Below, piece by piece: positions 5,866 through 43,311 of a DNA stretch of 46,736 bases (positions are counted from its first letter, which is position 1; each line of letters begins with the position of its first letter). Origin of the DNA: Escherichia phage BEK6. The position numbers and the translations under genes are program-made. The stretch lies in sequence record MN158208.1; one strand, given 5' to 3'. The notes below the pieces were generated by a model. That model saw only the letters and a program-made list of their open reading frames with translations, was not told where the DNA came from and searched no databases.

Positions 5866-5889
5866 AGCCTCCTTCGGGAGGTTTTTTTT
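5866..5889 (+). terminator. rho-independent terminator
   Basis: CCTCC-ttcg-GGAGG followed by TTTTTTTT. Confidence 0.6.
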
Positions 5890-11391: not shown

Positions 11392-14370
11392 ATGGCAACA
11401 AATGAATTAGCCGGAATTACACTAGCCGTAGACGTCTCGCAGGTAGATAGAGGTACACAGTCCCTGCAGAAGTTCAGACAGGCAAACCAGCAGGCCGCTT
11501 CCGGCATTAGTGAGTTCGTCAACGCCGAGCAGGTTGCAAAGAATCAAGCCAGAGACACAGCTCGCGCACTTGCTGAACAGCAAGCATCTTTAGCTAAATT
11601 GCAAACAGCTATTGACCCAACTGCGGCAAAGTTCCGTAAGCTGCAAGAGGCAGCGGTAGGTCTTGATAAGGCATTCGCGGCTGGCGTGGTTCCTGATGAG
11701 GAGTTTTTCCGCTTAGGTGAGGCGCTTGAAACGCAGAGCGCAAAGCTTGCTCGCTCACGTGCGGCGCTAACTGAAGAGGGAAGGGCGGCGGCACAGGCTG
11801 CAAAGGATAAAGCAAAAGCAAAGGCTGAAGCTGATAGATTCATTGCATCACTTGAGCGTCAGGCTCAGGCGGCGACATTGACGAGAGAGGAGTACCTAAA
11901 GCTACAAGCGGCCCAGCTTGGAGTTAGTTCCCAGGCTGCGCCCATCATTGACAGAATCGCCGATGCATCACAGAAGGCAAACACCCAGCTAATTGCTCAA
12001 AGCAAGGCCTTTCAACGCTCTGGCTTAAGCGCAGGTCAATACAAGGCTGCAATCTCTCAATTGCCAGCGCAGATTACAGATATTGGGACATCACTTGCTG
12101 GCGGCATTCCGATTTGGCTTATTGCAATTCAGCAAGGCGGACAAATTAAGGATGCATTTGGAGGTATTGGTAACACATTTAGGTTTGCGCTTGCTGCTTT
12201 AAACCCGTTCAACGTAGCAGTTGGTGTTCTCGGTGGCGCTCTTGTTGCTTTAGGCGTCGGTGCTGCGCAGGCTGAAAGTGAATTCAGGGCGTTAAACTCT
12301 GCCATTGCGTTCTCAAACAACTCCACAATCGCATCAATCTCGCAGGTTAGAGAGTTGGTTAGCTCTGTTTCTGATGCTACTGGCGCAACCAGAGGGCTTG
12401 TGACTAGCATCGCAACAAGCCTTATTGAGCAAGGGAACCTTACACTGACGCAGATTGACAAGATTACCAAATCAACCGCCAGATGGGCGCAGTTGACAGG
12501 TAAGGATGCGAAGGAGATTACTGGTTACTATAACCAGATTGCAAGCGACCCAATCCAGGGTTTAGTTGACTTGGATAAGCGATTTAACTTCCTCACGCAG
12601 GGGCAATTGACGACAATCGAAAGATTGAGAGAGACTAGGGGTGAGGTTGAAGCTGTTACCGCCGCGATTGATATTTTCAGCAAGTCACAGGAAGCTAACC
12701 TTAACGACATAGCTGCGCAGTTAACTCCACTTGAGTTGGCCTGGAATGATTTTAGAAAGTACATCTCTGATATCTGGGATGCAATTAGTCGTAGAACGGT
12801 TGGGGCGCTGAACTTGTTTGTTGACGTAATAGCAGGAACAATTGAGCAAATCAGGGTCTTCCTTAACAGCGGTGACGTGCTGATTGGTGAATTCGTAATT
12901 AGCTCAATTCAGGCGTTGCAGAACATACCTGGTCTTGATGGTGTCGGTGATGACGTTATCAAGGCTCAGCGGGAGATTATCGATGCAGCTAAGAAGAATA
13001 ACCTTGAGCTAGAAAAGTCTATCAGGGAGCGAGACGCTAGAATAAGAAAAGGAGAAATGGGTTACGTTACTCGCAGAGAGAATCAGAATACCAATGAGCA
13101 GCCAGGCACGGATGAGGAGTTTGCAAAGAGGAAGAAGGCGCTTCAGGATGAGCTTGACGCGATTAAGAAGAACAGGAAAGAGGAAAATGGGAGGGTTAAG
13201 GAGCAAAGGGATTTAACAATTGGTTACGAATCTGGCGTGCTGGCACTTCAGGCTCAACTCAAGGTTCTTCAGGAAAATAGGGATATTGGCGCATTAATAA
13301 GTAATGAGCGCAAGCAGTATCTTCAAGAGGAGGCTAAATTCAGGATTCTTGAGCAGAGGCAACTTGATGGCTCAATTACCAAAGAGCAGGCAAGACTTCT
13401 CATTGAAAAGGATAAAGTTCTTGCACTCGCAAGTCAGAAAGCTGAGTTAGGCGATCAGATTGTTTTGCAGGAGCGTGCCAATAAGTTAGCTGAAGATAAC
13501 CGCAAAAAGATTCTTCAGATTAACAATGAGGCAAGCAATATTAATTTTGGGGCTGGCCTGTCTTCTCGGGAACAGCAGAGGGCAAGAGAGATCCAGGCTC
13601 TTCAGTCAAATCAGGTTAATGCTGGCGGCTCTCTTGATGATGTTGATTTCCAGCAGTTACTTGAAGCGAGAAAGGAATACTACAAGCAGGAGGATAATCT
13701 TAGGTCAGACTGGCAATCTGGTGTAACATCCACTCTCGCCGACTTGACAGAGAAATATACAGACTACAACCAGATTGCTAAGGACTTAACCGTTGCGGCA
13801 TTTGACGGGATTACAGAGCAAATTACAAACCTTGTAACCACTGGTGAGACGAACTTTAGGGAGTTCACAACAAGCATCCTGAAAATGATTGCGAAGATTG
13901 CAACTCAATTGCTTTTAGTTAAGGCCATCGAATCAACACTAACTAGTTTTGGTGGTGGTGGAGGTAACGCGTTTGGCTCATTTGCATCTGCTATGGGGTT
14001 CGCTGGCGGCGGCTACACTGGTGATGGTGGAAAATATCAGCCAGCAGGAACGGTACACCGTGGTGAGTTTGTATTCACAAAAGAAGCGACTAGCAGAATT
14101 GGCGTGAAAAACCTTTATGCGCTAATGAAGGGTTACGCAAACGGCGGTGCTGTTGGTGGTCCATCTGGTTATGCTAATGGCGGCTTGGTTTCTGGTGGGT
14201 CAAATGTTAATGTTAGTGGCATCACCGTTAACGTAAGCTCGGGTTTTGGTAGCGACCCAGAACAGGCTAAGGCATTGCAAAGTGGAGTCAAGGCTATCGT
14301 AGCGGAAGAGATTGCTCAGTCTTTCCAGCAGGGCGGCCGTGCGTATGCTTACCTTCGCGGATTCAACTAA
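11392..14370 (+). CDS. tail tape measure protein
   Basis: 992-aa ORF, GGAGG RBS, long Ala/Gln/Glu-rich coiled-coil regions and Gly-rich C-terminus; canonical position after G/GT. Confidence 0.85.
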   Translation: MATNELAGITLAVDVSQVDRGTQSLQKFRQANQQAASGISEFVNAEQVAKNQARDTARALAEQQASLAKLQTAIDPTAAKFRKLQEAAVGLDKAFAAGVVPDEEFFRLGEALETQSAKLARSRAALTEEGRAAAQAAKDKAKAKAEADRFIASLERQAQAATLTREEYLKLQAAQLGVSSQAAPIIDRIADASQKANTQLIAQSKAFQRSGLSAGQYKAAISQLPAQITDIGTSLAGGIPIWLIAIQQGGQIKDAFGGIGNTFRFALAALNPFNVAVGVLGGALVALGVGAAQAESEFRALNSAIAFSNNSTIASISQVRELVSSVSDATGATRGLVTSIATSLIEQGNLTLTQIDKITKSTARWAQLTGKDAKEITGYYNQIASDPIQGLVDLDKRFNFLTQGQLTTIERLRETRGEVEAVTAAIDIFSKSQEANLNDIAAQLTPLELAWNDFRKYISDIWDAISRRTVGALNLFVDVIAGTIEQIRVFLNSGDVLIGEFVISSIQALQNIPGLDGVGDDVIKAQREIIDAAKKNNLELEKSIRERDARIRKGEMGYVTRRENQNTNEQPGTDEEFAKRKKALQDELDAIKKNRKEENGRVKEQRDLTIGYESGVLALQAQLKVLQENRDIGALISNERKQYLQEEAKFRILEQRQLDGSITKEQARLLIEKDKVLALASQKAELGDQIVLQERANKLAEDNRKKILQINNEASNINFGAGLSSREQQRAREIQALQSNQVNAGGSLDDVDFQQLLEARKEYYKQEDNLRSDWQSGVTSTLADLTEKYTDYNQIAKDLTVAAFDGITEQITNLVTTGETNFREFTTSILKMIAKIATQLLLVKAIESTLTSFGGGGGNAFGSFASAMGFAGGGYTGDGGKYQPAGTVHRGEFVFTKEATSRIGVKNLYALMKGYANGGAVGGPSGYANGGLVSGGSNVNVSGITVNVSSGFGSDPEQAKALQSGVKAIVAEEIAQSFQQGGRAYAYLRGFN

Positions 14371-14789: not shown

Positions 14790-15545
14790 ATGTTAAGTCC
14801 AAAGTTTGAAAATCAGCTGCAAAGCCTTTTCCCTGGCGAGATTGTGACACTAATCCAGGTTGACGGAACCTCCTTCGGAAGTCTCGTTTACAACTTCCAC
14901 AATGAGAACATTTCATACACGCCAGAAGAGATTATGCTGTCCCAGATGAATGGGGAGCCACTACCAGAGAAGACTATTACATTTCGCGGTGAAGAGTATG
15001 GTCCTAGACCTTTCGGTATCTCGGGCATCAATATGACTTCTGACGGCAAGGCAAACAAAGTAACGCTAACAGTATCAAACGTGGACCAGCGTATCAGTGC
15101 CTTGATTCGCACTTACAATGGATTAGTCAAGGCTAAGGTTACTATCTGGATTACCACACGTGATAACATCAATGAAGATGGAAGTATTGCTGATGGTGAC
15201 TATCGCCGATTTGTTTACTTCATTGAGCGACCTAAGCAGGTTGATTACAAAACTGCGTCATTTGAGCTTAGTAGCCCGATGGATATGGATGGCATTTATA
15301 TCCCGGCGAGACTTGTTCAGTCTGTTTGCTATTGGGCTTCACGTGGCTGGTATCGTAGCGGGAATGGTTGCGACTACGCTGGTAATCGTTACTTTGACAA
15401 GGATGATAACCCAGTATCAGACCCTTCATTAGACTTCTGCGCCGGAACGGTTAATAGCTGTAAAATTAGATTTGGTGAGAATAATCAGCTTTCATTTGGT
15501 GGATGCGCGGCAGCAAGCCTTCAAGCTAAAGCAAATCAGAGCTAA
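14790..15545 (+). CDS. minor tail protein (lambda gpL-like)
   Basis: Cys-containing C-terminal region (CYWASRGWY...GNGCDYAGN...DFCAGTVNSC) like the gpL Fe-S motif; GGAGAAAATC-ATG start after a terminator. Confidence 0.7.
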   Translation: MLSPKFENQLQSLFPGEIVTLIQVDGTSFGSLVYNFHNENISYTPEEIMLSQMNGEPLPEKTITFRGEEYGPRPFGISGINMTSDGKANKVTLTVSNVDQRISALIRTYNGLVKAKVTIWITTRDNINEDGSIADGDYRRFVYFIERPKQVDYKTASFELSSPMDMDGIYIPARLVQSVCYWASRGWYRSGNGCDYAGNRYFDKDDNPVSDPSLDFCAGTVNSCKIRFGENNQLSFGGCAAASLQAKANQS

Positions 15546-15618: not shown

Positions 15619-15981
15619 ATGTTCTACATTAAATTTAACGGATACAAAAAAGATAAAGAAGAATGCGAAGGTTTATTTTCTGTTGGTGAAACTTACGCCT
15701 GCGATGTTGTTGACTCGGGTAGGTACTATCAGGTTAGGGATGATGATGGTAAAACTGTAAAATTTAGCAGCATGCTCCATGATAGTTATTACAGCTTTTC
15801 ACGAGTTCATATTGAGGAAGATAGCTTAACTTTGATCAAATATGCGCGTGATGGAGAAATGAAATATCGAATGAATGGTGTTGATGTTACTAAGTCATTC
15901 TTTGAGGATAAGCTTCGTGAAGTTGAGTTACTTAAATCAAGAGGTGTTTCTGTGTTTGTAGATTTTGAGGTTAGTTTTTAA
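15619..15981 (+). CDS. hypothetical protein (moron between L-like and K-like genes)
   Basis: 120-aa ORF preceded by palindrome (15544-15563) / TATAGT (15584-15589) / leader module and followed by strong terminator 16005-16030. Confidence 0.5.
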   Translation: MFYIKFNGYKKDKEECEGLFSVGETYACDVVDSGRYYQVRDDDGKTVKFSSMLHDSYYSFSRVHIEEDSLTLIKYARDGEMKYRMNGVDVTKSFFEDKLREVELLKSRGVSVFVDFEVSF

Positions 15982-17395: not shown

Positions 17396-20300
17396 ATGGC
17401 ACAAATGATCAAAACAAACATGAGGCTTTGTGATATGGCTGAAGATATTAAGATTTATGGTGCTAAAGGCGGTAGCCAGAAGCCGCACCAACCAGTGGAA
17501 CAAGAAGACAACCTGATTTCATTAAACAAGGTTAAGGTGTTACTTGCGGTTGCTGACGGCGAGGTGGATTCAAACTTCTCAATGAAGGATTTATACCTTG
17601 CTGACGTTCCTGTGCAGAACCAGGATGGTAGCTACAACTACGAAGGTGTTCGCGCTGAGTTCCGTGCTGGCACGCAGTATCAGGACTATATCGCTGGGCT
17701 TGATGGTGCCAACTCAGAGATTCAGGCATCCAGAGAGATCACGAACGATACACCGTATATCATCGCGGTTAACAATACTCAGCTATCGGCGATTCGTGTA
17801 AAGCTATACTGGCCTAGACTGGTTAAGCAAGAAAGCAATGGAGATCTGAACGGAACAACCTGCGAGTATGCAATTGACCTTTCTGTTAATGGTGGCGCTT
17901 ACCAGGAATATACTCGAGGAGTTGCTAACGGGAAGACAACTACAGGTTACGACCGCAGCATTCGTGTAAACCTTCCGGCTGAATTTGATAGCGCATTGGT
18001 TCGCATCAGAAAGATTACGCCAGATTCAACAAGTAGCACATTGGTTAACGGGATGCAGATTACAACCTATCAGGAAGTGATTGACGCTAAATTCCGCTAT
18101 CCGCTTACGGCTCTGGTTTATGTTGAGTTTGGATCTGACCTTTTCCCTAACGGAATACCGACAATCTCTATCAAGAAGCGCTGGAAGCTGATTCAGGTCC
18201 CAACCAACTACGACCCGGAAACAAGAACTTACAGCGGAACATGGAATGGACTGTTCAAAATGGCATGGTCAAATAACCCAGCCTGGGTTCTTTATGACTT
18301 AGTGACAAACCGTCGCTATGGCCTTGATCAACGAGAGTTGGGCGTGGAGATTGATAAGTGGGGATTGTATGAAGCCGCGCAATTCTGTGACCAGATGGTG
18401 CCAGATGGAAAAGGTGGAATGGAGCCGCGCTACCTGTGCGATATGGTTGTACAGAATAAGGTTGAGGCCTACACGCTAATTCGTGATATCTGCTCAATCT
18501 TCCGTGGCCTGACTTTCTATGACGGCGAAAAGATTGGTATTGTGGTTGATAAGCCACGCAACCCATCATACATCTTCACGAATGATAACGTTGTAAACGG
18601 ATTATTCAGCCGAACTTTTGCCAGTGATAAGAGCCTTTACACTACGGCAAACGTTCAGTTTGATGATGTGGAGAACAACTATCAGCAGGATGTTGAGCCA
18701 GTTTTCGAGCTCGAGGCTACTCGTCGATTCGGATTCAACCCAGTCGACCTTACGGCGATTGGGTGTACTCGCAGAAGTGAAGCAAACAGACGTGGCAGAT
18801 GGCTCCTGAAAACCAACCTGAGAAGCGAAACTATCAGCTTCACTACCGGGTTGGAAGGCATGATTCCGATGATTGGAGAGGTTATTGCGGTTAATGACGC
18901 GGCATGGTCCAGCAACTATCAGTTAAACCTTTCCGGTCGTATTGAATCAGTTCAGGGATTGCAGGTTTTTACCCCGTTTAAAGTTGACGCAGCGCCAGGT
19001 GACAGAATTCTTCTGAACAAACCCGACGGAAGTCCAGAAGCAAGAACTATTGCCAGCGTTTCGGAAGATGGTAGAACAATCAACCTGAATACTGCTTTTA
19101 GCTTTGTAGCTCAACCTGATACTGTGTTCGCAATTGATAAGGACAATCTTGCTCTTCAGCAATATGTTGTGACCGGGATTCAAAAAGCAGATTCTGATGG
19201 ATCGGATTCATTCCAGTATACGATTACAGCAGTGGAGTACGACCCGAACAAGTATGACGAGATTGATTACGGCGTTAACATTGTTGACCGCCCAACTTCA
19301 ATCGTAGAGCCTGACAGATTATCGCCACCAGAAAACCTGACGGTATCAAGCTACAGTAAGGTTGTTCAGGGTTTATCAGTTGAGACGATGGTTATCGGAT
19401 GGGATAAGGCTCCATACGCTAAAACATACAATGTTCAGTGGAGGAAAGAAAATGGCAACTGGATTAACGTACCAAGAACGGCAAGTACAGAGGTTGATAT
19501 CGAAGGTATTTACGCAGGAATCTATGACGTTAGGGTTCGCAGCGTATCAGATACTGAAAACGTGTCTGCCTGGTCTGATATTGTAACGGTATCGCTAACT
19601 GGCAAGATTGGCCGCCCATCGGCGCCTACGGTTATCACGGCGTCAGCTGATGAGGTATTTGGCATCCGTGTTAAATGGGGATTCCCTGATGGCTCTGGTG
19701 ATACTGCTTACACTGAGCTTCAGCAGGTTCCTGATAATGGCGATGGTACTTACAATCCTGATAACGCAAGTTTGCTGACTTTACTGCCTTATCCAGCCTA
19801 TGAATACTGGCACACGCCAATTCAGCCAGGAAAGGTTATCTGGTATCGCGCAAGATTGATTGACAGAATCGGTAACACATCTGATTGGTCTAATTTCGCA
19901 AGAGGCATGAGTACTGACGACGCCAACATTATCAATGATTACATCAAGGTTGATATTGAGGCTTCGGAAGGATTCAAATACCTCGAGCAGAATGCGATTC
20001 AAAAGAATCAGGACATTCAGAATCAGGCAGAGTCAATTCTTGAGAATGCATTAGCTAATGATGCAGACGTTCGCCGCATGACCAAGGAGAACGGCAAGCG
20101 TAAGGCTGAATATGTTCAGGCAGTTAATCTCATAGCCGATGAAACTCAGGCTCGTGTAGAGGCTCTAACAGCCCTTAAAGCGCAGATAGATGATGAAGTT
20201 GTAGCATCGATTACAGAAGTTCAGACAGCGCTAGCCACCGAGACAGAAGCAAGGACTACTGCAGACACTGCTCTATCAGCAAGATTGGGTGATAACGAGG

Positions 20301-20806
20301 CGGCTATAAACCAGAAATTAGACGCATTTTCCAATGCGACCTCTACTGGCGTGCAGTACGGAATTAGTCTTGGCCTTAAATACAATGGAAAGACTTATTC
20401 ATCCGGCATGAGCATGGAGCTAGTTGGCACTGGTGGAAACGTTCGCAGTCAGTTCATTTTTGACGCAAACAGATTCGCAATCAGTAACGGCATTGGTTCT
20501 GGTTCCGGTCAGTGGCAACTCCCCTTCGTTGTAGAGAACGGAAACGTAATCATCCAAAGTGCGGTAATTGGCGATGGCTCAATTACTAACGCGAAGATTG
20601 GTGACTTTATTCAGTCCAGCAACTACGTGGCAGGAAGCACAGGCTGGAGGATTGATAAGTCTGGTAACGCTGAGATTCGCGGCAAACTGTACGCCAACAG
20701 TGGTGAATTCGCCTTTAACGGAACAAACAATACGGTACAGATTAACGGAAACGGAATCACGGTTAACTTGCCTGGAGGAGGAAGAGTTGTGGTAGGTACT
20801 TTCTAA
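17396..20806 (+). CDS. central tail fiber / host specificity protein (lambda gpJ-like)
   Basis: 1136-aa ORF at the end of the tail module; fibronectin-III-like segment (YNVQWRKENGNWINVP...YDVRVRSV); exact start uncertain (ATGs at 17396/17405/17435). Confidence 0.8.
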   Translation: MAQMIKTNMRLCDMAEDIKIYGAKGGSQKPHQPVEQEDNLISLNKVKVLLAVADGEVDSNFSMKDLYLADVPVQNQDGSYNYEGVRAEFRAGTQYQDYIAGLDGANSEIQASREITNDTPYIIAVNNTQLSAIRVKLYWPRLVKQESNGDLNGTTCEYAIDLSVNGGAYQEYTRGVANGKTTTGYDRSIRVNLPAEFDSALVRIRKITPDSTSSTLVNGMQITTYQEVIDAKFRYPLTALVYVEFGSDLFPNGIPTISIKKRWKLIQVPTNYDPETRTYSGTWNGLFKMAWSNNPAWVLYDLVTNRRYGLDQRELGVEIDKWGLYEAAQFCDQMVPDGKGGMEPRYLCDMVVQNKVEAYTLIRDICSIFRGLTFYDGEKIGIVVDKPRNPSYIFTNDNVVNGLFSRTFASDKSLYTTANVQFDDVENNYQQDVEPVFELEATRRFGFNPVDLTAIGCTRRSEANRRGRWLLKTNLRSETISFTTGLEGMIPMIGEVIAVNDAAWSSNYQLNLSGRIESVQGLQVFTPFKVDAAPGDRILLNKPDGSPEARTIASVSEDGRTINLNTAFSFVAQPDTVFAIDKDNLALQQYVVTGIQKADSDGSDSFQYTITAVEYDPNKYDEIDYGVNIVDRPTSIVEPDRLSPPENLTVSSYSKVVQGLSVETMVIGWDKAPYAKTYNVQWRKENGNWINVPRTASTEVDIEGIYAGIYDVRVRSVSDTENVSAWSDIVTVSLTGKIGRPSAPTVITASADEVFGIRVKWGFPDGSGDTAYTELQQVPDNGDGTYNPDNASLLTLLPYPAYEYWHTPIQPGKVIWYRARLIDRIGNTSDWSNFARGMSTDDANIINDYIKVDIEASEGFKYLEQNAIQKNQDIQNQAESILENALANDADVRRMTKENGKRKAEYVQAVNLIADETQARVEALTALKAQIDDEVVASITEVQTALATETEARTTADTALSARLGDNEAAINQKLDAFSNATSTGVQYGISLGLKYNGKTYSSGMSMELVGTGGNVRSQFIFDANRFAISNGIGSGSGQWQLPFVVENGNVIIQSAVIGDGSITNAKIGDFIQSSNYVAGSTGWRIDKSGNAEIRGKLYANSGEFAFNGTNNTVQINGNGITVNLPGGGRVVVGTF

Positions 20807-25960: not shown

Positions 25961-26365
25961 ATGCACATAATTACTGGTCAGATTCGCCGCGCTCCATTCA
26001 CCAAAGAAGGCGTAAACGCCAATGGTAACTGGAAAATGTTCGCAGTTGATTTGAGTGAGCGCTACAAAGATAAAGATGGTCAATCACAGTACACAAATTA
26101 TCGTGCCGTCTTCTTCGCTAAAGAATCTATGTTAGATTGGTACAATGATGCATTTCAAGAAGGTAAAGTTGTTAGTGTTAGCGCTGAAAGCTTGGCTGTA
26201 GATGTTAGGGATAAAGATGGTAAGACTTACGTAACCATTAACATGAATAATCCTCGGCTTGAGTTTAGTCAGCGAGGTGAGAGTGGAGGTCAACAACAAC
26301 AGCAACAGCGTCAACAGCCACAGCCACAGCAGCAACAGCAGTTCAATGACGACATTCCATTCTAA
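25961..26365 (+). CDS. ssb: single-stranded DNA-binding protein
   Basis: OB-fold-like N-terminal domain, Gly/Gln-rich linker and canonical acidic tail ...FNDDIPF. Confidence 0.8.
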   Translation: MHIITGQIRRAPFTKEGVNANGNWKMFAVDLSERYKDKDGQSQYTNYRAVFFAKESMLDWYNDAFQEGKVVSVSAESLAVDVRDKDGKTYVTINMNNPRLEFSQRGESGGQQQQQQRQQPQPQQQQQFNDDIPF

Positions 26366-26380
26366 TACTGAAACAAATAA

Positions 26381-26403
26381 GGAGCCTTGCGGCTCCTTTT
26401 TTT
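26381..26403. terminator. bidirectional terminator between SSB (+) and fiber-like (-) genes
   Basis: GGAGCC-ttgc-GGCTCC followed by TTTTTTT. Confidence 0.65.
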
Positions 26404-26404
26404 A

Positions 26405-28912
26405 TCATGCTCCGTAAGCAACGGAGCCATCTGCTTTTAACCATGAAGTTCCGTTGTACCACACAGGAATCCCAAGGTTGGTATCGAAAGTTGTGAAACC
26501 TACAGGCTGAAAAGCCCTTTTGGCTTTGATTTCGGCAGTTGTTCCATAGCTGTACTCTTTAAGCCTATGCGAAACCAAGTCAGAATTCCTGTTCCATAAG
26601 ATTTCATGCTCTTCAATCTTACCCCCAGAAGTTATTGAGTTAACCTGGTAGATACACCTAATCGTAGACATAGCACCAGAGTAATAATGTCCAAAAATAG
26701 AAATGAATCCAGTATCGTCCTGTATTTCATTTAACCACGGTTGAAAAACAGATCGAATATCACCCGTTGCTTCTGAAAGTGATAGCCTGAACTCAAAATC
26801 ACTCTTAACATTGTTTGATACACACCATGCGTTTACTGCATTAAAGGCTTCCAGTACCGTCATGGAAGGCTTCACATTTGAAAAGTAAAGGTACTTTGCA
26901 ATCTCAGAGCTACTATTAACAATGACATTGGAATCCTGAATGGTGCTGCTGAAATTCTTTACAGGAAAAAGAGATGCATTAACAACATTTAAAGCCCTTG
27001 TTAATGGATATGAAAGTCTTTCCAGCGTGTTTGTGTAATGATTTCCGGTTGTCGCGTCTACTATCCCAGCCCTGTATTTTATAAGATTAGGGTCCCATAT
27101 GGTTAAGTCAAAAAAGCAACCATCCATAAAACCAATGCCGTTTGATATCTTCACAACCTTTTGCATCATTGCGTGTGGTTGTGACTTGAGTCTGACTCTT
27201 ATGTCACCAATTCCACCTGCCACATTTCCACCAGACTTCGGCAAGCTATTGTCAACAAAATGATTCGTACTAAGCCACGCAACAAGATTCAAGTCCATTG
27301 ATGAAATAAAGTTTAACTTATTTGATCCAACGCTGATTGCGTGAGCGTTAGTAAAACCAGTTGACGAAACATCTATATCATTCCATATCAATACCTCTTG
27401 ATCTTTTGAGTTGCAGTCAATTGAGAATCCATAACCCTCATCATTAACTGGTGATGCTGCGGCCTCTTGCTTGATGGCTCCTTGCTTGTTGAATACGTAG
27501 AAATTACCAAAGAATGTTCGCTGGCTAAGTCTAGAGAAGTTTTGCGGCCCAGTATAGTAATTAGAACCCCTTAAAGTAAGAGCTACGCGCGAGTAACCGC
27601 CACCAGGTATGTCAACCTCAATTCTCATTCCATTAGCATTAAAGTTTGCTATAGGGTTTTTAAAGACAAATCCGTCAATGTCAGTTTTTATTAAAAAAAC
27701 AACATCTTCCGAAATGCTTACTTCCTTTAAACGTCCAATATCAATAGTCTTCGTACTAGAAATTAGATAAACACCAGATTTTACAACAAACCTGCCATCT
27801 GAAATCATAGCGTCAAAGCTAGAATCTACTGGCGTAGCTCCGGTATTATCTGCTCCGTAAGAAACTAAATCACCAATGAACCTTGATGTTGATTCCTCTT
27901 TTGAGTAAACATCAAGATTAGTTCTTGCTGCGGCTTTATCTTTAACGTCAGAGAAATTCAATGATTTTTGAAAAGTCTCATTTTTTGAATAAACATCAAG
28001 CAACCCCCTAACCCTTAAAGCAGAAGCTCCACCAGTAGCACCATCTCCACCAGGAACGCTTAGAAGTTCCCTTACATAAAAATTCCTAGAACCAGTAGCT
28101 CCAGTAAAGGTAATTTCCGCAACCCTAAAAGCTGCGTTTGAGGTTGTAGAAGGAGAAATTCTTACTACGTTACTTCCATTAATACCACTCGTTGCAAGAA
28201 CATCAATACAAATGGTGGTGTTTGTCGCCGGGAACATTGAACTTAAGTCTGCCGGAATGTTAACCATGTTGTCAATTCTGCACTGGTAACTACCACCTGA
28301 ATAAAATTGCATTGTCTGCCAATCAAGAGATGTTAAAAGTGGTGTTGTAGTACTTCCTATACCGTGTTCTGCAAAGTAAGCCACTGCGGCGGTATTCCCG
28401 GCTGCATTTATTACGGCAACGGTTCTCTTGTATGAGTTCTGTGCATTATTGCTAGCACCAACGGCAGTAGCGGCGCTCTCTGCGGCAGCAATCTGGCTAG
28501 CAAGAGCCTCAGCAGCTCCAGTGGTGGATTGTTTTGCAAGTTTCTCGAAGCGAGGCCAGTCGAAAGTGTCTTGACCAATAAATTGCAGCAATCCTTCGAT
28601 GGATGTCTCCTTTGACTGGTAGTATCGTAAAGTCTCCGCAACATCCTGAGCCAAACCCTGAACGGTAATACCATCGTGAGCAAGAATCGCATAACCCGTA
28701 CCGGCCGGAACTGTTTCAGAATTAGGATTGTAAACATTAATCTGCGTATCACTGATGATTTCAGAGATGGTGTAAATTTTTAGTGGGTTAGTTTTAAAAA
28801 TGATAGTGGCACCAACCCTGATCAGTGTAAGAGGTGCTTTCCATACTGTCCCCGCGCCAGTTACCTCGCCATTTGCGGCCAGCGAGGCGGTTCCTAAGTC
28901 ATAAATTGCCAT
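26405..28912 (-). CDS. putative tail fiber / tailspike-like protein
   Basis: 835-aa ORF rich in Gly/Ser/Thr/Asn; GC-richer 5' portion and AT-rich central/3' portion; GGAGA RBS; palindrome copy in the 5' leader. Confidence 0.5.
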   Translation of the reverse strand: MAIYDLGTASLAANGEVTGAGTVWKAPLTLIRVGATIIFKTNPLKIYTISEIISDTQINVYNPNSETVPAGTGYAILAHDGITVQGLAQDVAETLRYYQSKETSIEGLLQFIGQDTFDWPRFEKLAKQSTTGAAEALASQIAAAESAATAVGASNNAQNSYKRTVAVINAAGNTAAVAYFAEHGIGSTTTPLLTSLDWQTMQFYSGGSYQCRIDNMVNIPADLSSMFPATNTTICIDVLATSGINGSNVVRISPSTTSNAAFRVAEITFTGATGSRNFYVRELLSVPGGDGATGGASALRVRGLLDVYSKNETFQKSLNFSDVKDKAAARTNLDVYSKEESTSRFIGDLVSYGADNTGATPVDSSFDAMISDGRFVVKSGVYLISSTKTIDIGRLKEVSISEDVVFLIKTDIDGFVFKNPIANFNANGMRIEVDIPGGGYSRVALTLRGSNYYTGPQNFSRLSQRTFFGNFYVFNKQGAIKQEAAASPVNDEGYGFSIDCNSKDQEVLIWNDIDVSSTGFTNAHAISVGSNKLNFISSMDLNLVAWLSTNHFVDNSLPKSGGNVAGGIGDIRVRLKSQPHAMMQKVVKISNGIGFMDGCFFDLTIWDPNLIKYRAGIVDATTGNHYTNTLERLSYPLTRALNVVNASLFPVKNFSSTIQDSNVIVNSSSEIAKYLYFSNVKPSMTVLEAFNAVNAWCVSNNVKSDFEFRLSLSEATGDIRSVFQPWLNEIQDDTGFISIFGHYYSGAMSTIRCIYQVNSITSGGKIEEHEILWNRNSDLVSHRLKEYSYGTTAEIKAKRAFQPVGFTTFDTNLGIPVWYNGTSWLKADGSVAYGA

Positions 28913-28924
28913 TGTGTAGAGTCT

Positions 28925-28944
28925 CCATTTTGTAGAATAGCACG
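28925..28944 (-). promoter_or_regulatory. palindrome copy in the 5' leader of the 835-aa fiber-like gene
   Basis: Minus-strand reading TTAGCAATTCGTGCTATTC then TACAAAAT-GGAGA RBS; candidate extended -10 TGaTACAAT just upstream on the minus strand. Confidence 0.45.
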
Positions 28945-28968
28945 AATTGCTAAGTTGGATTGTATCAT

Positions 28969-28992
28969 CTTTCAGGCATAAAAAAACCTCCC
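28969..28992 (-). terminator. rho-independent terminator after the primase gene (minus strand)
   Basis: Minus-strand AACCTCC-ttcg-GGAGGTT followed by TTTTTTT. Confidence 0.6.
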
Positions 28993-29000
28993 GAAGGAGG

Positions 29001-29924
29001 TTAGTCTAGTAATTCGCTTGCCTTGTATATCCTCTTCCTTATGCCTGACTTAAAAAATTTATCATCATTTGGCATTACCACATCAAGATTGCGATCGTCA
29101 GCAACGGCGAGTAAATCAAAATCGTGGCGAGCACAAGCGACGCGTAACTTGTAGTTTCTAAGCGCGTAAGCAACCATTTCCATGTTGTAGCTGGAGTAGC
29201 AAACAAACACGCAGCGGTTGCCAGTAGCAATATGAACGCGAACACCATCAATCCAATTATCGACCAGATAAGCGTACTCATCACTTTTAAAGGCACCAAT
29301 AACAGCAATAGACTGGCGAGTGTAATCTTTTGCAGCATAACTAACATCTCCCTCTTCATTAATAAACATTACATTGCACATCTCATCGGACAATCCATCA
29401 CTATAGGCCATAAAACAAGGCACTGCGTGTATTAGTTCTCCTGATTTTGTCCTGCCGACATCAAAACCAAACTCGCTATAGATACCCTCGTATATACTTA
29501 GTGGAGTTGATTCTACTCTTTCCGTCCTTTCCATTATCTCTAAGCATCTTTCGTGGTCAATCTGAGCGCCCATTTTGTACAGCTGAGTCCTTGATGCTTG
29601 CTTGTTTGCCTTATTAACCACTTCTACAGGGATAAGGTTTAACCACTCACCGAGAACATCGACACATTCACTGAATGACTCCCCTCGCATCTTCTGAACC
29701 CAGACAATTCCATCTCCTGAGCCACACTGGTTGCAGATAATGCCACCATCACCTTCTTCGCTAACCTTGTTGGTCCATCGTGCTCGGTCTTTTCCTCCAC
29801 AATAAATACATGGCTGATGCTTTTTGGTCTGGAAGAATTTTGGGTCTGCGCCGCAAATGTTTATAAGCGCCTTATCCCACAGTCCGCGCATTCTTGGTAG
29901 AACCTCTTTCTTATCGTAGTGCAT
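29001..29924 (-). CDS. putative DNA primase (zinc-ribbon containing)
   Basis: CIYCGG...CNQCGSG paired CxxC zinc-ribbon near the N-terminus; divergent from the helicase gene; strong terminator downstream on the minus strand. Confidence 0.45.
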   Translation of the reverse strand: MHYDKKEVLPRMRGLWDKALINICGADPKFFQTKKHQPCIYCGGKDRARWTNKVSEEGDGGIICNQCGSGDGIVWVQKMRGESFSECVDVLGEWLNLIPVEVVNKANKQASRTQLYKMGAQIDHERCLEIMERTERVESTPLSIYEGIYSEFGFDVGRTKSGELIHAVPCFMAYSDGLSDEMCNVMFINEEGDVSYAAKDYTRQSIAVIGAFKSDEYAYLVDNWIDGVRVHIATGNRCVFVCYSSYNMEMVAYALRNYKLRVACARHDFDLLAVADDRNLDVVMPNDDKFFKSGIRKRIYKASELLD

Positions 29925-29982
29925 ATCAATCTATCTCTTAACAAATAAAAAAGGATGTACCGATTATGGCACATCCAATTAT

Positions 29983-38456: not shown

Positions 38457-40040
38457 TCACCCCAGCAGTCGTGGATTAATGTAAACTTTATCACCAATCA
38501 GGCACGTGTAGTTTTTCTCATCAAGCATTGGCAGCAAGTGGTCTTTAATCTTCGTCATTACTCCCGCTTGAGCCTCGAACGGCTTAACCTTGCGAGCCGC
38601 TTCATATAGCGAACGAATACCTACTACTCCTTTCCCGTTTTTGCCTTGCTTAATCAGGATATCAATCAGCTTATTCATCTCTGCATTGTCGCCAGCGTGA
38701 CCCGCGGCGTTAGCGGATGACAGATAAGTTTTGCTCAACTCCTGGAACATAATTACAGCTTCCTGCATTGTATCAAGCTCAATTTCTCTCGACTTCTGAG
38801 GGCTACCGCCATTTGGGTTGAACCAGTTACGCACAGTGTGAAGGACAGCCGCAATCCTTATTGCCTGCTTATCAAACTTACCAAGCGCGCCGCGCAACAT
38901 TGTGTGTGAATACTTGCCGCCGTCCGCAAGGTGAGGTTCCATTTCCTGACGCGCACGGTTGAGATACTTCATTGCTGAGTTACTAACCGTTAGTTTTACA
39001 TCCTGCTCATTCATGATTTCATGAACAAGACGGAAGTAATCAGCCTTCAACCCTGCATCAATTGGTTCATAAGTCGATTCGCCATTTTCATCAACGAATA
39101 CACGCTCGCCCAGGAATGACTTTTCACGTACAAGCAGGAAACGCTCAGATACACCGATACCACGCGCGCCAGCGTTCATGATAGCGTTGATTGTCTCATC
39201 CTGCGCAATTACAGAGATGCAACCCATAGCGACGAAGCTCATGTTGTTTTCAGCGTTAGCACGAGCGATAGATACGTTGCCAGCATCCCATGCCTTCAGT
39301 ACCAGTTCGCTGTTCGTTTTCTTTGATCCGTCACCATAGGTCATGCCAAGTAGTGAGTTTACACTCGTTGCCTCATCCGAGATTACTGCAAAGTTACCCT
39401 GACGATTGTTTATTCGCGCAAGACCTTCCGGTGTGGTATCTGAAACCGGGAAAACGATATCGCATAGTTTCTCGAGTTTTTCCTCCAACTCCTCTTTCTC
39501 CTCGAAAAGAGAAGCCATCTCTGACGGGGATTTTTCCTGCTTCATCTCTTTGGATAACGCAGATAGTTTAGCCATAATCTTTTTGCGCTCACGCTTTCGC
39601 ACTTCATTCAGTCGAGCAGTTTCAGCAATCATCGGAGCAATTGAAAGTGAGTTGATTGCTGATTTACCAGTCGATGGTGGCTGGCTTGTTACAACATAAA
39701 GCGAAGTCGGTTGCTGCGTTCCGTGATACTCAACAGTAAAACGGCCTAGCATCGCAGCGGAAATACACCCAAGGAAGTGCATGTAAGCTGAAGACTCGGG
39801 GAACTGAACTGAGCGAGCAATATTAGCTGACAGTTTACCAACAACATCAATGTCATTGCCGAGTGAGATCACGGGATACTTGTCATTAGCCGCATCAATC
39901 TCCACCGGTGCTTTCCAGAATGATTGAGACTGGCGATAGCCATTGGCATTAATAGCGACGCGCAGGGGTGGGAGGTTGTCTGCGGCAGCAATTGCCATAA
40001 CCTGTTCAACAGATAGTTTATCTTCGTTGAAATCAAACAT
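38457..40040 (-). CDS. P-loop NTPase-like protein (Walker A/B-like motifs), function unknown
   Basis: 527 aa; Walker A-like QPPSTGKS and Walker B-like FAVISDEAT in the central region; N- and C-terminal segments shared with the 175-aa ORF at 42714-43241. Confidence 0.5.
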   Translation of the reverse strand: MFDFNEDKLSVEQVMAIAAADNLPPLRVAINANGYRQSQSFWKAPVEIDAANDKYPVISLGNDIDVVGKLSANIARSVQFPESSAYMHFLGCISAAMLGRFTVEYHGTQQPTSLYVVTSQPPSTGKSAINSLSIAPMIAETARLNEVRKRERKKIMAKLSALSKEMKQEKSPSEMASLFEEKEELEEKLEKLCDIVFPVSDTTPEGLARINNRQGNFAVISDEATSVNSLLGMTYGDGSKKTNSELVLKAWDAGNVSIARANAENNMSFVAMGCISVIAQDETINAIMNAGARGIGVSERFLLVREKSFLGERVFVDENGESTYEPIDAGLKADYFRLVHEIMNEQDVKLTVSNSAMKYLNRARQEMEPHLADGGKYSHTMLRGALGKFDKQAIRIAAVLHTVRNWFNPNGGSPQKSREIELDTMQEAVIMFQELSKTYLSSANAAGHAGDNAEMNKLIDILIKQGKNGKGVVGIRSLYEAARKVKPFEAQAGVMTKIKDHLLPMLDEKNYTCLIGDKVYINPRLLG

Positions 40041-40097
40041 TACTTCTCTCCGTATTGTTTCTGAGCGGCCATTATATCAACGACCGCTTATAATTCA

Positions 40098-43255: not shown

Positions 43256-43311
43256 AGGGGATTCATCCTGACTGGTATAATCCCCACATCAACCAAACGA
43301 AAGGAATTTGA

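What the first reader, a model, noticed from the sequence alone, without database searches (positions are those of the whole stretch)
26405..28912. 835-aa fiber/tailspike-like gene embedded in the replication module with a compositionally distinct distal part
A large Gly/Ser/Thr/Asn-rich ORF is encoded on the minus strand between the SSB and primase genes, far from the tail module. By eye its 5' approximately 450 nt (about 28450-28912) are GC-richer like the rest of the genome, whereas the central and 3' parts (for example 27600-28100) are markedly AT-rich. That pattern suggests a conserved virion-anchoring N-terminus fused to a horizontally acquired receptor-binding or enzymatic domain. The palindrome element sits in its 5' leader, and a candidate extended -10 (TGaTACAAT) lies just upstream.
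Basis: partly seen in the sequence, partly recalled or inferred. Interest (0 to 1): 0.55.

Follow-up and report, generated by a model that had tools for sequence, protein, structure and literature searches.

The report
T1-like phage lateral tail fibre/tailspike
This is the ordinary side tail fibre gene of a T1-like coliphage, sitting where that family always keeps it, with a conserved virion-attachment head joined to a swapped-in sugar-recognising beta-helix tailspike module that probably targets the E. coli O11 / Salmonella O:16 surface polysaccharide.

Summary
The 835-aa minus-strand ORF (26405-28912) is real. The window is Escherichia phage BEK6 (Drexlerviridae), where this exact protein is already deposited as "tail fibers protein". 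Its place between SSB and primase is the conserved, published layout of the family's lateral tail fibre locus, not an anomaly.

Residues 1-~160 are the family-wide anchor. Residues 1-~310/340 are 81-93% identical to close relatives. Residues 346-835 are a different cassette, unrelated to the relatives' distal parts. That cassette is shared (52-80% aa identity) with tailspikes carried behind T7-gp17, P22 head-binding, TSP1/gp66 and tail-collar adaptors.

The "palindrome" is the primase gene's terminator. The extended -10 is plausible and conserved.

New here: prophage versions of the module occur in Salmonella O:16 serovars and in E. coli genomes that are all O11 (3 of 3; O11 is 66 of 5426 genomes). 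This predicts an O11/O:16 O-antigen receptor.

Ordinary biology; low interest.

The parts
26405..28912 (-). Lateral tail fibre / tailspike gene, 835 aa (identical to Escherichia phage BEK6 'tail fibers protein')
   Evidence: ORF; 100% identical to P0001; PHROG 24092 'tail fiber protein' E 1.7e-129; the syntenic gene in JeanPiccard is annotated 'lateral tail fiber protein'.
28679..28912 (-). Residues 1-78: small N-terminal beta-domain, the core of the family-wide virion anchor
   Evidence: AF2 pLDDT 75-92. Carries most of the invariant columns in the 31-sequence alignment. Aligns to residues 1-158 of Depo32/DpK2, called the 'N-terminal anchor domain' in PMC10581125.
28367..28663 (-). Residues 84-182: Ala-rich long helices, probably a trimeric helical bundle; the GC-richest part of the gene
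   Evidence: Helices 84-112 and 119-182 in the AF2 model, at low monomer confidence. Depo32 has a helical-bundle domain up to residue 185. GC 0.52-0.53 here, and the change-point falls at codon 184.
28058..28345 (-). Residues 190-285: beta-sandwich middle domain shared only by a subgroup of relatives
   Evidence: AF2 strands with pLDDT 70-91. Only about 12 of the 120 listed homologues (of 180 found) cover this region. It is 93-97% identical at DNA level to FP and JeanPiccard.
27878..28051 (-). Residues 288-345: flexible linker with two copies of the LDVYSK motif (27983-28000 and 27899-27916); the zone of recombination breakpoints
   Evidence: pLDDT below 50. Motifs at residues 305 and 333. Similarity to JeanPiccard ends after residue ~309 and to FP after ~340. 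DNA identity decays across codons 320-345.
26993..27877 (-). Residues 346-~640: right-handed parallel beta-helix receptor-binding (probably glycan-processing) domain; starts at the IG(G)DL-x-SYGAD-x-TG junction motif
26408..26875 (-). Residues ~680-835: alpha/beta C-terminal domain ending in a short beta-hairpin motif (residues ~785-831) that recurs at the C-termini of unrelated fibre proteins
   Evidence: AF2 secondary structure with pLDDT 75-92. PHROG 20787 match to residues 785-831. PDB 9d83 Gp49 C-terminus matches 801-831. Short hits P0042-P0053.
28985..29002 (-).
   Evidence: Terminator scan; fold; identical 14-mer after another gene at 5868-5881; conserved in JeanPiccard and FP.
28959..28967 (-). 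Candidate extended -10 promoter element TGATACAAT, 46 nt upstream of the ATG
   Evidence: Sequence. TGNTAYAAT occurs 9 times against 4.1 +/- 1.9 expected, and 0 of 100 shuffles reach 9. Conserved as TG[A/C]TACAAT in relatives. No usable -35, and not called by the two-hexamer scan.
28923..28926 (-). Shine-Dalgarno GGAG, 10 nt before the ATG
   Evidence: Read directly from the sequence; invariant in the three-phage alignment.
26379..26398 (.). Bidirectional terminator-like hairpin between the convergent SSB and tail-fibre genes; also where similarity to relatives resumes
   Evidence: Called on both strands. DNA identity to relatives recovers in this flank.

Best explanation
The gene encodes the lateral tail fibre (functionally a tailspike) of a T1-like siphovirus.

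Proposed architecture. The protein is probably a homotrimer built from the following parts:
- an N-terminal beta-domain and helical bundle (residues 1-~182) that dock it on the tail;
- a beta-sandwich (190-285);
- a flexible linker (288-345);
- a right-handed parallel beta-helix (346-~640), followed by a C-terminal alpha/beta domain (to 835).

Proposed function. The beta-helix binds, and probably cleaves, a host surface polysaccharide. This lets the virion work its way through the O-antigen layer to the outer membrane. There a separate receptor-binding protein encoded downstream of gpJ engages the terminal protein receptor.

Origin. The distal 490 residues are an interchangeable cassette. It was swapped in by recombination in the linker, next to short conserved motifs (LDVYSK, IG(G)DL). 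The same cassette circulates among Drexlerviridae, Kayfunavirus, P22-like prophages and other phages behind different anchors. The most likely ligand is the E. coli O11 / Salmonella O:16-type O-antigen.

Expression. The gene probably has its own extended -10 promoter behind the primase terminator, so this structural gene can be expressed separately from its replication-gene neighbours.

Shown: the mosaic structure, the fold, the synteny, and the prophage-serogroup association. Inferred: trimer formation, virion attachment, enzymatic cleavage, transfer of O11 specificity to BEK6, and promoter use.
For: Identity and synteny. The protein is 100% identical to the BEK6 'tail fibers protein'. The same gene order (exoVIII-Erf-SSB, then tail fibre, primase and regulator on the minus strand, then helicase) is seen in JeanPiccard, where the gene is annotated as lateral tail fibre, and in FP. 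PMC8594841 describes this locus, its conserved flanks and its conserved 5' end for Drexlerviridae. It also describes the two-step recognition model with separate terminal-receptor proteins.

Anchor. PHROG tail-fibre families match residues 1-160/363. PDB Depo32 and DpK2 match residues 1-161 at E 1e-32, a region called the anchor domain in PMC10581125. There are 180 homologues carrying at least 7 kinds of distal domain.

Cassette. DNA identity to relatives falls from ~90% to background between codons ~310-345 and the stop codon. BLASTP breakpoints fall at residues ~309 and ~340. The module is 52-80% identical to proteins carrying PF03906, PF09008, PF18668 or PF12571 adaptors, and all converge at IG(G)DLxSYGAD.

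Receptor. The named Salmonella hosts of the prophage version are Saphra, Orientalis, Hvittingfoss, Redlands and Gaminara. Two are verified as O:16. E. coli O11 and S. enterica O16 O-antigens are published as closely related. The prediction was then tested: all 3 E. coli complete genomes with the prophage tailspike carry the O11 wzx/wzy genes. O11 accounts for 66 of 5426 genomes, giving a chance probability of 1.7e-6 if the three are independent. PMC10408124 reports that tailspike subtypes at >=30% identity over the binding domain keep their serogroup specificity, and that prophage tailspikes track the host O-antigen.

Expression signals..
Against: - No Pfam or NCBIfam family matches the protein, and no solved structure is related by sequence to the distal domain. 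The enzyme class and catalytic residues are therefore unassigned.
- Foldseek hits were not significant (best E 7.5e-3, TM 0.27).
- The models are monomers, so trimer formation was not examined.
- BEK6's module is only 52-56% identical to the O11/O:16-associated prophage modules, so its specificity could differ.
- The three E. coli carriers may not be independent, and three of the five Salmonella serogroup assignments rest on memory.
- BASEL notes that the role of Drexlerviridae lateral fibres in O-antigen binding 'has never been directly demonstrated'.
- The -10 element has no -35 partner, and there are no transcript data.
Confidence: 0.85

Rival explanations
1. The fibre binds its glycan without cleaving it. 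The beta-helix would act as a lectin-like scaffold for reversible attachment, and the fibre would not be a depolymerase.
Against: Three Asp residues (D570, D607, D619) are invariant and several more acidic residues are nearly invariant, down to 22% identity, as expected for a conserved active site. In P22-like and Kayfunavirus podoviruses the same module is the only tailspike, and in such phages the tailspike typically has to cut through the O-antigen (general knowledge of P22, HK620 and Sf6).
Confidence: 0.2
2. The module targets a capsule or another exopolysaccharide (K antigen, colanic acid, ECA) rather than the O-antigen, and the O11/O:16 association is a by-product of strain lineage.
For: The N-terminal anchor is shared with Klebsiella capsule depolymerases. 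PMC10408124 lists tailspike subtypes that cross serogroups and may target capsules. The three E. coli carriers could be clonally related.
Against: The association holds in two separate species (five named Salmonella serovars; E. coli O11). These are exactly the two serogroups whose O-antigens are published as closely related, a link predicted before the E. coli test was run. P22-like prophage tailspikes correlate with host O-antigen.
Confidence: 0.1
3. The GC contrast within the gene does not mark foreign DNA. It follows from protein composition: an Ala-rich coiled-coil head against an Asn/Ser/Ile-rich beta-helix.
For: GC3 is the same for residues 1-345 and the module (0.348 vs 0.353), while GC1 and GC2 differ (0.48/0.49 vs 0.43/0.40). 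A GC3-only change-point is not significant (p 0.24). Ala is 15.6% in residues 1-160 and 6.3% in 346-835. The step at codon 184 does not coincide with the recombination junction.
Against: The module is 3.7-8.5 GC points below its surroundings in all four carriers examined, including a 50%-GC podovirus. GC3 of the whole region after codon ~180 (0.33) is well below the genome's gene mean (0.447 +/- 0.049), with a trough of 0.18-0.27 at codons 255-430. A mobile, AT-leaning gene pool therefore also contributes.
Confidence: 0.5
4. The protein is not a virion component. It would be a free, secreted or lysis-released depolymerase, or a protein with a role in the replication module.
For: Only its genomic position among replication and recombination genes. 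No proteomic data exist.
Against: Strong homology of the head to tail-fibre families and to the anchor of virion-borne depolymerases. The position is conserved as the lateral-fibre locus across the family. The module serves as the tailspike in other phages.
Confidence: 0.03

Closest known systems
Lateral tail fibre locus of Drexlerviridae (T1-like phages), e.g. JeanPiccard/Bas02 bas02_0034, as described in the BASEL collection paper (PMC8594841)
   Same: Same gene position and strand between SSB and primase. Same flanking genes. The head is 81% (JeanPiccard) to 93% (FP) identical. Only the 5' part is shared between family members.
   Different: The distal ~490 residues are a different cassette with no detectable sequence similarity to those of JeanPiccard or FP. 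The sister isolates BEK2/BEK3 carry yet another one, PF18668 + PF03372.
Klebsiella Webervirus capsule depolymerases Depo32 (PDB 7VZ3/7VYV) and DpK2 (7LZJ)
   Different: Only 9% identity in the beta-helix. A different middle domain. No jelly-roll CBM could be identified by sequence. The Depo32 target is the K2 capsule, whereas an O-antigen is inferred here.
P22-type (Lederbergvirus) tailspikes with head-binding domain PF09008, in prophages of Salmonella O:16 serovars and E. coli O11
   Same: The receptor-binding module is 52-56% identical over the full 490 residues, with the same IGGDL-SYGAD start.
   Different: The anchor is the P22 head-binding domain rather than the Drexlerviridae fibre head. 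In those podoviruses it is the sole tailspike; here it is an accessory lateral fibre alongside a separate terminal-receptor protein.
Kayfunavirus tail protein (Baskent_phicoli_1, T7 gp17-type N-terminus PF03906) and TSP1/gp66-type 630-aa tailspikes (PF18668)
   Same: The module is 61-63% identical over 100% of its length.
   Different: Different virion adaptors and phage morphotypes.
Structurally characterised beta-helix O-antigen tailspikes (HK620, CBA120 TSP1-4, Det7, phi29 gp12, K5A lyase)
   Different: 6-12% sequence identity. No shared catalytic motif could be established. Foldseek similarity is not significant.

Membership tests
Drexlerviridae lateral tail fibre locus | Gene lies between the recombination genes (exoVIII/Erf/SSB) and primase/helicase, with conserved syntenic flanks | tested here: met
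   BEK6; JeanPiccard, FP; literature description.
Drexlerviridae lateral tail fibre locus | N-terminal ~100-160 residues homologous across the family | tested here: met
   PHROGs; 910 phage records, mostly Klebsiella and Escherichia; PDB Depo32/DpK2 residues 1-161; 180 homologues, most covering only the first 29-47% of the head.
Drexlerviridae lateral tail fibre locus | Distal part variable and non-homologous between family members | tested here: met
   at least 7 distal domain types.
Drexlerviridae lateral tail fibre locus | Protein is incorporated into the virion as a lateral fibre | not testable with these tools
   Needs virion proteomics or EM. Inferred from homology only.
Right-handed parallel beta-helix (pectin-lyase-fold) tailspikes/depolymerases | Beta-helix fold of the receptor-binding domain | tested here: met
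Right-handed parallel beta-helix (pectin-lyase-fold) tailspikes/depolymerases | Match to a curated sequence family (e.g. Pfam PF12708) | tested here: not met
   No Pfam or NCBIfam hit for BEK6. Only sub-threshold PF12708 hits (21.6-22.6 bits against a cut-off of 27) in two distant homologues.
Right-handed parallel beta-helix (pectin-lyase-fold) tailspikes/depolymerases | Homotrimeric assembly | not tested
Right-handed parallel beta-helix (pectin-lyase-fold) tailspikes/depolymerases | Glycanase active site (paired acidic residues) and polysaccharide cleavage | tested here: inconclusive
   D570, D607 and D619 are invariant across 26 sequences. Their spatial arrangement could not be examined, and no enzyme class is assignable.
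O-antigen serogroup-specific tailspike subtype (criteria of PMC10408124), here E. coli O11 / Salmonella O:16 | [quoted passage not shown] | tested here: met
   52-56% identity at 100% coverage. The hosts are O:16 serovars and O11 E. coli, 3 of 3. The criterion is quoted.
O-antigen serogroup-specific tailspike subtype (criteria of PMC10408124), here E. coli O11 / Salmonella O:16 | Experimentally shown binding or cleavage of that O-antigen, or a known BEK6 host serogroup | not testable with these tools
   No paper on BEK6 was found.
Fibres with a C-terminal intramolecular chaperone (Peptidase_S74, PF13884) | S74 chaperone domain at the C-terminus | tested here: not met
   Absent in BEK6, although present in many proteins sharing its head. 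No separate chaperone gene fits in the 39-nt gap to SSB.

The most novel reading that the evidence does not exclude
The 490-residue module defines an uncharacterised tailspike receptor-binding family with no Pfam model, no solved relative, and only ~10 representatives at E<=1e-10 among 1.84 billion clustered proteins. It would be specific for the E. coli O11 / Salmonella O:16 O-antigen. It has been moved between at least five different virion-anchor types, using short linker motifs (LDVYSK, IG(G)DL) as recombination joints. BEK6 would then be a ready-made O11-recognising siphovirus, and the motifs would be practical splice points for re-targeting T1-like phages.
Probability: 0.5. Interest if true: 0.3.

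Novelty: already known. Interest (0 to 1): 0.18.

Why it matters
The finding mainly shows that a gene which looks misplaced to a naive reader is textbook for its family. T1-like phages keep their lateral fibre gene among the replication genes and exchange its distal half freely.

The practical value is limited but real:
- It gives a specific, cheap-to-test receptor prediction (O11 / O:16 O-antigen) for a deposited phage and for a small tailspike family with no structure or Pfam model.
- It locates exact junctions (after LDVYSK, and at IG(G)DL-SYGAD) where modules have been exchanged in nature. These could guide host-range engineering of Drexlerviridae.

It does not open or resolve any long-standing question.

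Tried and rejected
- Pfam and NCBIfam scans of the whole protein gave nothing.
- A profile search of PDB sequences with alignment A1 hit only through other carriers' N-terminal adaptors, so it says nothing about the binding domain.
- The tblastn alignment to Acinetobacter phage AB4P2 appeared to start at residue 248. BLASTP shows essentially no identities before ~344, so I rejected the idea that the middle domain is shared with that phage.
- Literature searches for BEK6 and for PDB entries 9D80-9D84 found nothing usable.
- Text confirmation of the O:16 formula succeeded for Gaminara and Hvittingfoss only. For Saphra, Orientalis and Redlands it failed, and those three rest on my memory of the Kauffmann-White scheme.
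- I considered whether the GC step marks the recombination junction and rejected it: the change-point is at codon 184, the breakpoints at 310-345.
- I considered the palindrome as a gene-specific regulatory element and rejected it. It is a terminator-type hairpin with an identical copy behind another gene.
- The two-hexamer promoter scan did not call the proposed promoter. It stands only as an extended -10.
Full report
**What is there**

The ORF is exactly as described: 26405..28912 on the minus strand, ATG start, 835 aa. Gly, Ser, Thr and Asn together make up 33% of residues.

Its neighbours are exonuclease VIII, an Erf-type annealing protein and SSB on one side. On the other side are primase, a transcriptional regulator and a helicase. 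The tape-measure gene and the gpJ central-fibre gene lie at 11392-14370 and 17396-20806.

The protein is 100% identical to the deposited 'tail fibers protein' of Escherichia phage BEK6, on a 46,766-bp contig. The window is therefore essentially that phage genome. Its closest relatives are Drexlerviridae (Braunvirinae): vB_EcoS_FP, JeanPiccard/Bas02 and the vB_EcoS-xxxx series.

**The location is normal for the family**

JeanPiccard and FP have the same order and strands of all flanking genes. JeanPiccard's counterpart is annotated 'lateral tail fiber protein'.

The BASEL collection paper (PMC8594841) describes this locus for Drexlerviridae. Its flanks encode recombination and primase/helicase genes and are conserved and syntenic. 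[quoted passage not shown] The fibres are proposed to bind O-antigen as a primary receptor, while separate proteins encoded downstream of gpJ bind the terminal receptor. The authors note that the O-antigen role 'has never been directly demonstrated'.

**Mosaic structure**

There are three nested layers.

1. Residues 1-~160 are the family-wide head.
   - They match several tail-fibre PHROGs.
   - They match the first ~160 residues of the solved Klebsiella Webervirus depolymerases Depo32 and DpK2 at E 1e-32. This region is called the N-terminal anchor plus helical bundle in PMC10581125.
   - They match most of 180 homologues, which cover only the first 29-47% of a 345-residue query.
   - Behind this head, different phages carry Peptidase_S74, Phage_tail_C_2, PF21882, pectate-lyase-like, TSP1-N+GDPD, TSP1-N+Exo_endo_phos or PF27114 modules. 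The sister isolates BEK2/BEK3 carry one of these alternatives.
2. Residues ~160-345 are shared by only about a dozen proteins. They are 93-97% identical at DNA level to FP and JeanPiccard.
3. Residues 346-835 are the swapped cassette.
   - DNA identity to both relatives is 85-97% from the primase flank to codon ~310. It decays over codons 320-345, stays at background level (roughly 15-47%) to the stop codon, and recovers in the SSB flank.
   - BLASTP similarity ends after residue ~309 for JeanPiccard and ~340 for FP. Each end point falls directly after one of two LDVYSK motifs, at residues 305 and 333.

**Where else the cassette occurs**

The cassette is 75-80% identical to 829-846-aa proteins with Drexlerviridae-type heads. 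It is 61-63% identical to proteins with T7-gp17 (PF03906, Kayfunavirus Baskent_phicoli_1) or TSP1/gp66 (PF18668) N-termini. It is 59-60% identical to 763-aa proteins on ~154-kb contigs. It is 52-56% identical to 618-aa P22-type tailspikes with the head-binding domain PF09008. More distant relatives (33-34%) carry a tail-collar fibre N-terminus, PF12571.

All carriers converge at the motif IG(G)DL-x-SYGAD-x-TG. The family is small: 10 representatives at E<=1e-10 among 1.84 billion clustered proteins.

**Fold**

An AlphaFold2 model of residues 341-835, built from a 26-sequence alignment, has a mean pLDDT of 87.4.

- Short strands stack for ~300 residues.
- A lower-confidence linker follows.
- The model ends in an alpha/beta C-terminal domain.

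The fold is therefore established, but the enzyme class is not. D570, D607 and D619 are invariant across the alignment and are candidate catalytic or ligand-binding residues. No Pfam, NCBIfam or PDB sequence relative exists for this domain.

The N-terminal model (mean pLDDT 66.5) is usable only domain by domain:

- a beta-domain at residues 1-78;
- long helices at 84-182;
- a beta-sandwich at 190-285;
- a disordered linker at 288-345.

**Base composition**

A single change-point falls at codon ~184 (window ~28360), with 48.3% GC before it and 39.5% after it (permutation p~0.01). The 27600-28100 stretch is the AT-richest part of the gene.

The signal is modest. The distal part sits at the 5.5th percentile of same-size windows and ~2 SD below the mean gene GC. 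The step also does not mark the recent junction; it marks the end of the Ala-rich anchor and bundle.

GC3 is equal for residues 1-345 and for the module (0.348 vs 0.353), whereas GC1 and GC2 differ. Amino-acid content therefore explains much of the step.

Even so, the module is 3.7-8.5 GC points below its surroundings in every carrier examined. GC3 also has a trough of 0.18-0.27 at codons 255-430, straddling the junction. An AT-leaning mobile gene pool probably contributes as well.

**Leader region**

The 'palindrome' is AACCTCC-TTCG-GGAGGTT followed by a T-run, directly after the primase stop codon. It is called as a terminator-like site, and an identical 14-mer lies behind another gene at 5868.

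TGATACAAT (28959-28967) fits the extended -10 consensus. That consensus is enriched in the genome: 9 matches against 4.1 +/- 1.9 expected, with 0 of 100 shuffles reaching 9.

The hairpin, the -10 element and the GGAG are all conserved in FP and JeanPiccard. Those genomes are ~90% identical here anyway, so this conservation is weak evidence.

Each of the three minus-strand genes is followed by a terminator-like hairpin. This fits separate expression of the structural gene, which remains an inference.

**Receptor**

The P22-type versions of the module lie in typical P22-like prophages. The serovar names attached to them are Saphra, Orientalis, Hvittingfoss, Redlands and Gaminara. Gaminara (16:d:1,7) and Hvittingfoss (16:b:e,n,x) are confirmed as O:16 in PMC4777767. 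The other three are O:16 from my memory of the Kauffmann-White scheme.

S. enterica O16 and E. coli O11 O-antigens are published as a closely related pair (Li et al. 2011, cited in PMC7685785). From this I predicted that E. coli hosts of the prophage module would be O11.

Only three of 5426 complete E. coli genomes carry a detectable relative of the module. I located the O-antigen locus of one of them, strain EC187792. It is annotated with 'O11 family' wzx and wzy genes. That O11 wzy is present in 66 of 5426 genomes, and the list includes all three carriers. The chance probability is 1.7e-6 if the three are independent, and 1.2e-2 if they represent a single event.

PMC10408124 reports that prophage tailspikes track the host serogroup, and that subtypes defined at >=30% identity over the binding domain keep their specificity. 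BEK6's module, at 52-56% identity, therefore probably recognises an O11/O:16-type O-antigen. I put this at about 0.55, because specificity can drift and the sample is small.

**Verdict**

This is a known kind of gene in its known place, already deposited and annotated. What this analysis adds:

- the exact junctions;
- the fold;
- an explanation of the GC step;
- identification of the palindrome as a terminator;
- a testable receptor prediction.

Interest is low.

Noticed in passing
window 5868-5881 (+) and 28987-29000 (-): The identical 14-mer CCTCCTTCGGGAGG (a UUCG-loop hairpin) follows two unrelated genes, each time in the gene's own orientation. A 2-mismatch copy lies at 14869-14882. It looks like a reused terminator design (3 matches against 0.13 expected).
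   Followed up: partly
window 26379-26398, 28985-29002 (-), 29953-29976 (-): Each of the three consecutive minus-strand genes (regulator, primase, tail fibre) is followed by its own terminator-like hairpin. The one between the convergent SSB and fibre genes scores on both strands. This suggests the three genes are separate transcription units.
   Followed up: no
window 15619-15981 (+): The lowest-GC ORF of 120 aa or more in the window (34.7% GC, GC3 0.29) sits between minor tail protein genes. It matches PHROG 14592 'virion structural protein'. It is compositionally more deviant than the tail-fibre cassette.
   Followed up: partly
window 26420-26560 (-), residues ~785-831: The extreme C-terminal motif (GFTTFDT..IPVWYNG.SWLKADGSVAY) matches PHROG 20787 and the C-terminus of PDB 9D83 Gp49. 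It also matches both stand-alone 67-150-aa proteins and the C-termini of otherwise unrelated 350-840-aa fibre proteins. It appears to be a small mobile end-piece of unknown role.
   Followed up: partly
window 27899-27916 and 27983-28000 (-): The LDVYSK motif is duplicated in the linker. The similarity breakpoints to JeanPiccard and FP fall right after the first and second copy respectively. Similar L[DG]x[YF]S motifs occur at the head-module boundary in 53 of the 212 proteins fetched up to that point.
   Followed up: partly
window 27620-28150 (-), codons ~255-430: A deep GC3 trough (0.18-0.27 against a genome gene mean of 0.447) spans the conserved end of the head, the linker and the first rungs of the beta-helix. 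It therefore straddles the recombination junction rather than stopping at it.
   Followed up: no
window 40071-40079 (-), 43273-43281 (+) and others: The extended -10 consensus TGNTAYAAT is enriched genome-wide (9 matches against 4.1 expected). One copy lies 31 nt upstream of the start of the 527-aa helicase gene (38457-40040, -).
   Followed up: partly
window ~26282-26362 (+): The SSB has a Gln-rich C-terminal tract (GGQQQQQQRQQPQPQQQQQ) before the acidic tip DDIPF.
   Followed up: no
P0126 (Escherichia phages BEK2/BEK3): Sister isolates from the same series carry a 505-aa fibre with the same anchor but a TSP1-N + Exo_endo_phos (PF03372) distal part. The lateral fibre is therefore the variable element within this phage set.
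   Followed up: partly
L008 / L007 (E. coli EC187792, NZ_CP158112.1, 1875301-1876278): In this O11 lysogen, the O-antigen chain-length regulator gene wzzB is annotated as a pseudogene (internal stop).
   Followed up: no
L005 11555-13857 (Salmonella prophage): The Salmonella P22-like prophage carries gtrA/gtrB-type O-antigen modification genes downstream of the tailspike (beyond an IS110-family transposase gene). These could alter the very glycan the tailspike recognises.
   Followed up: no
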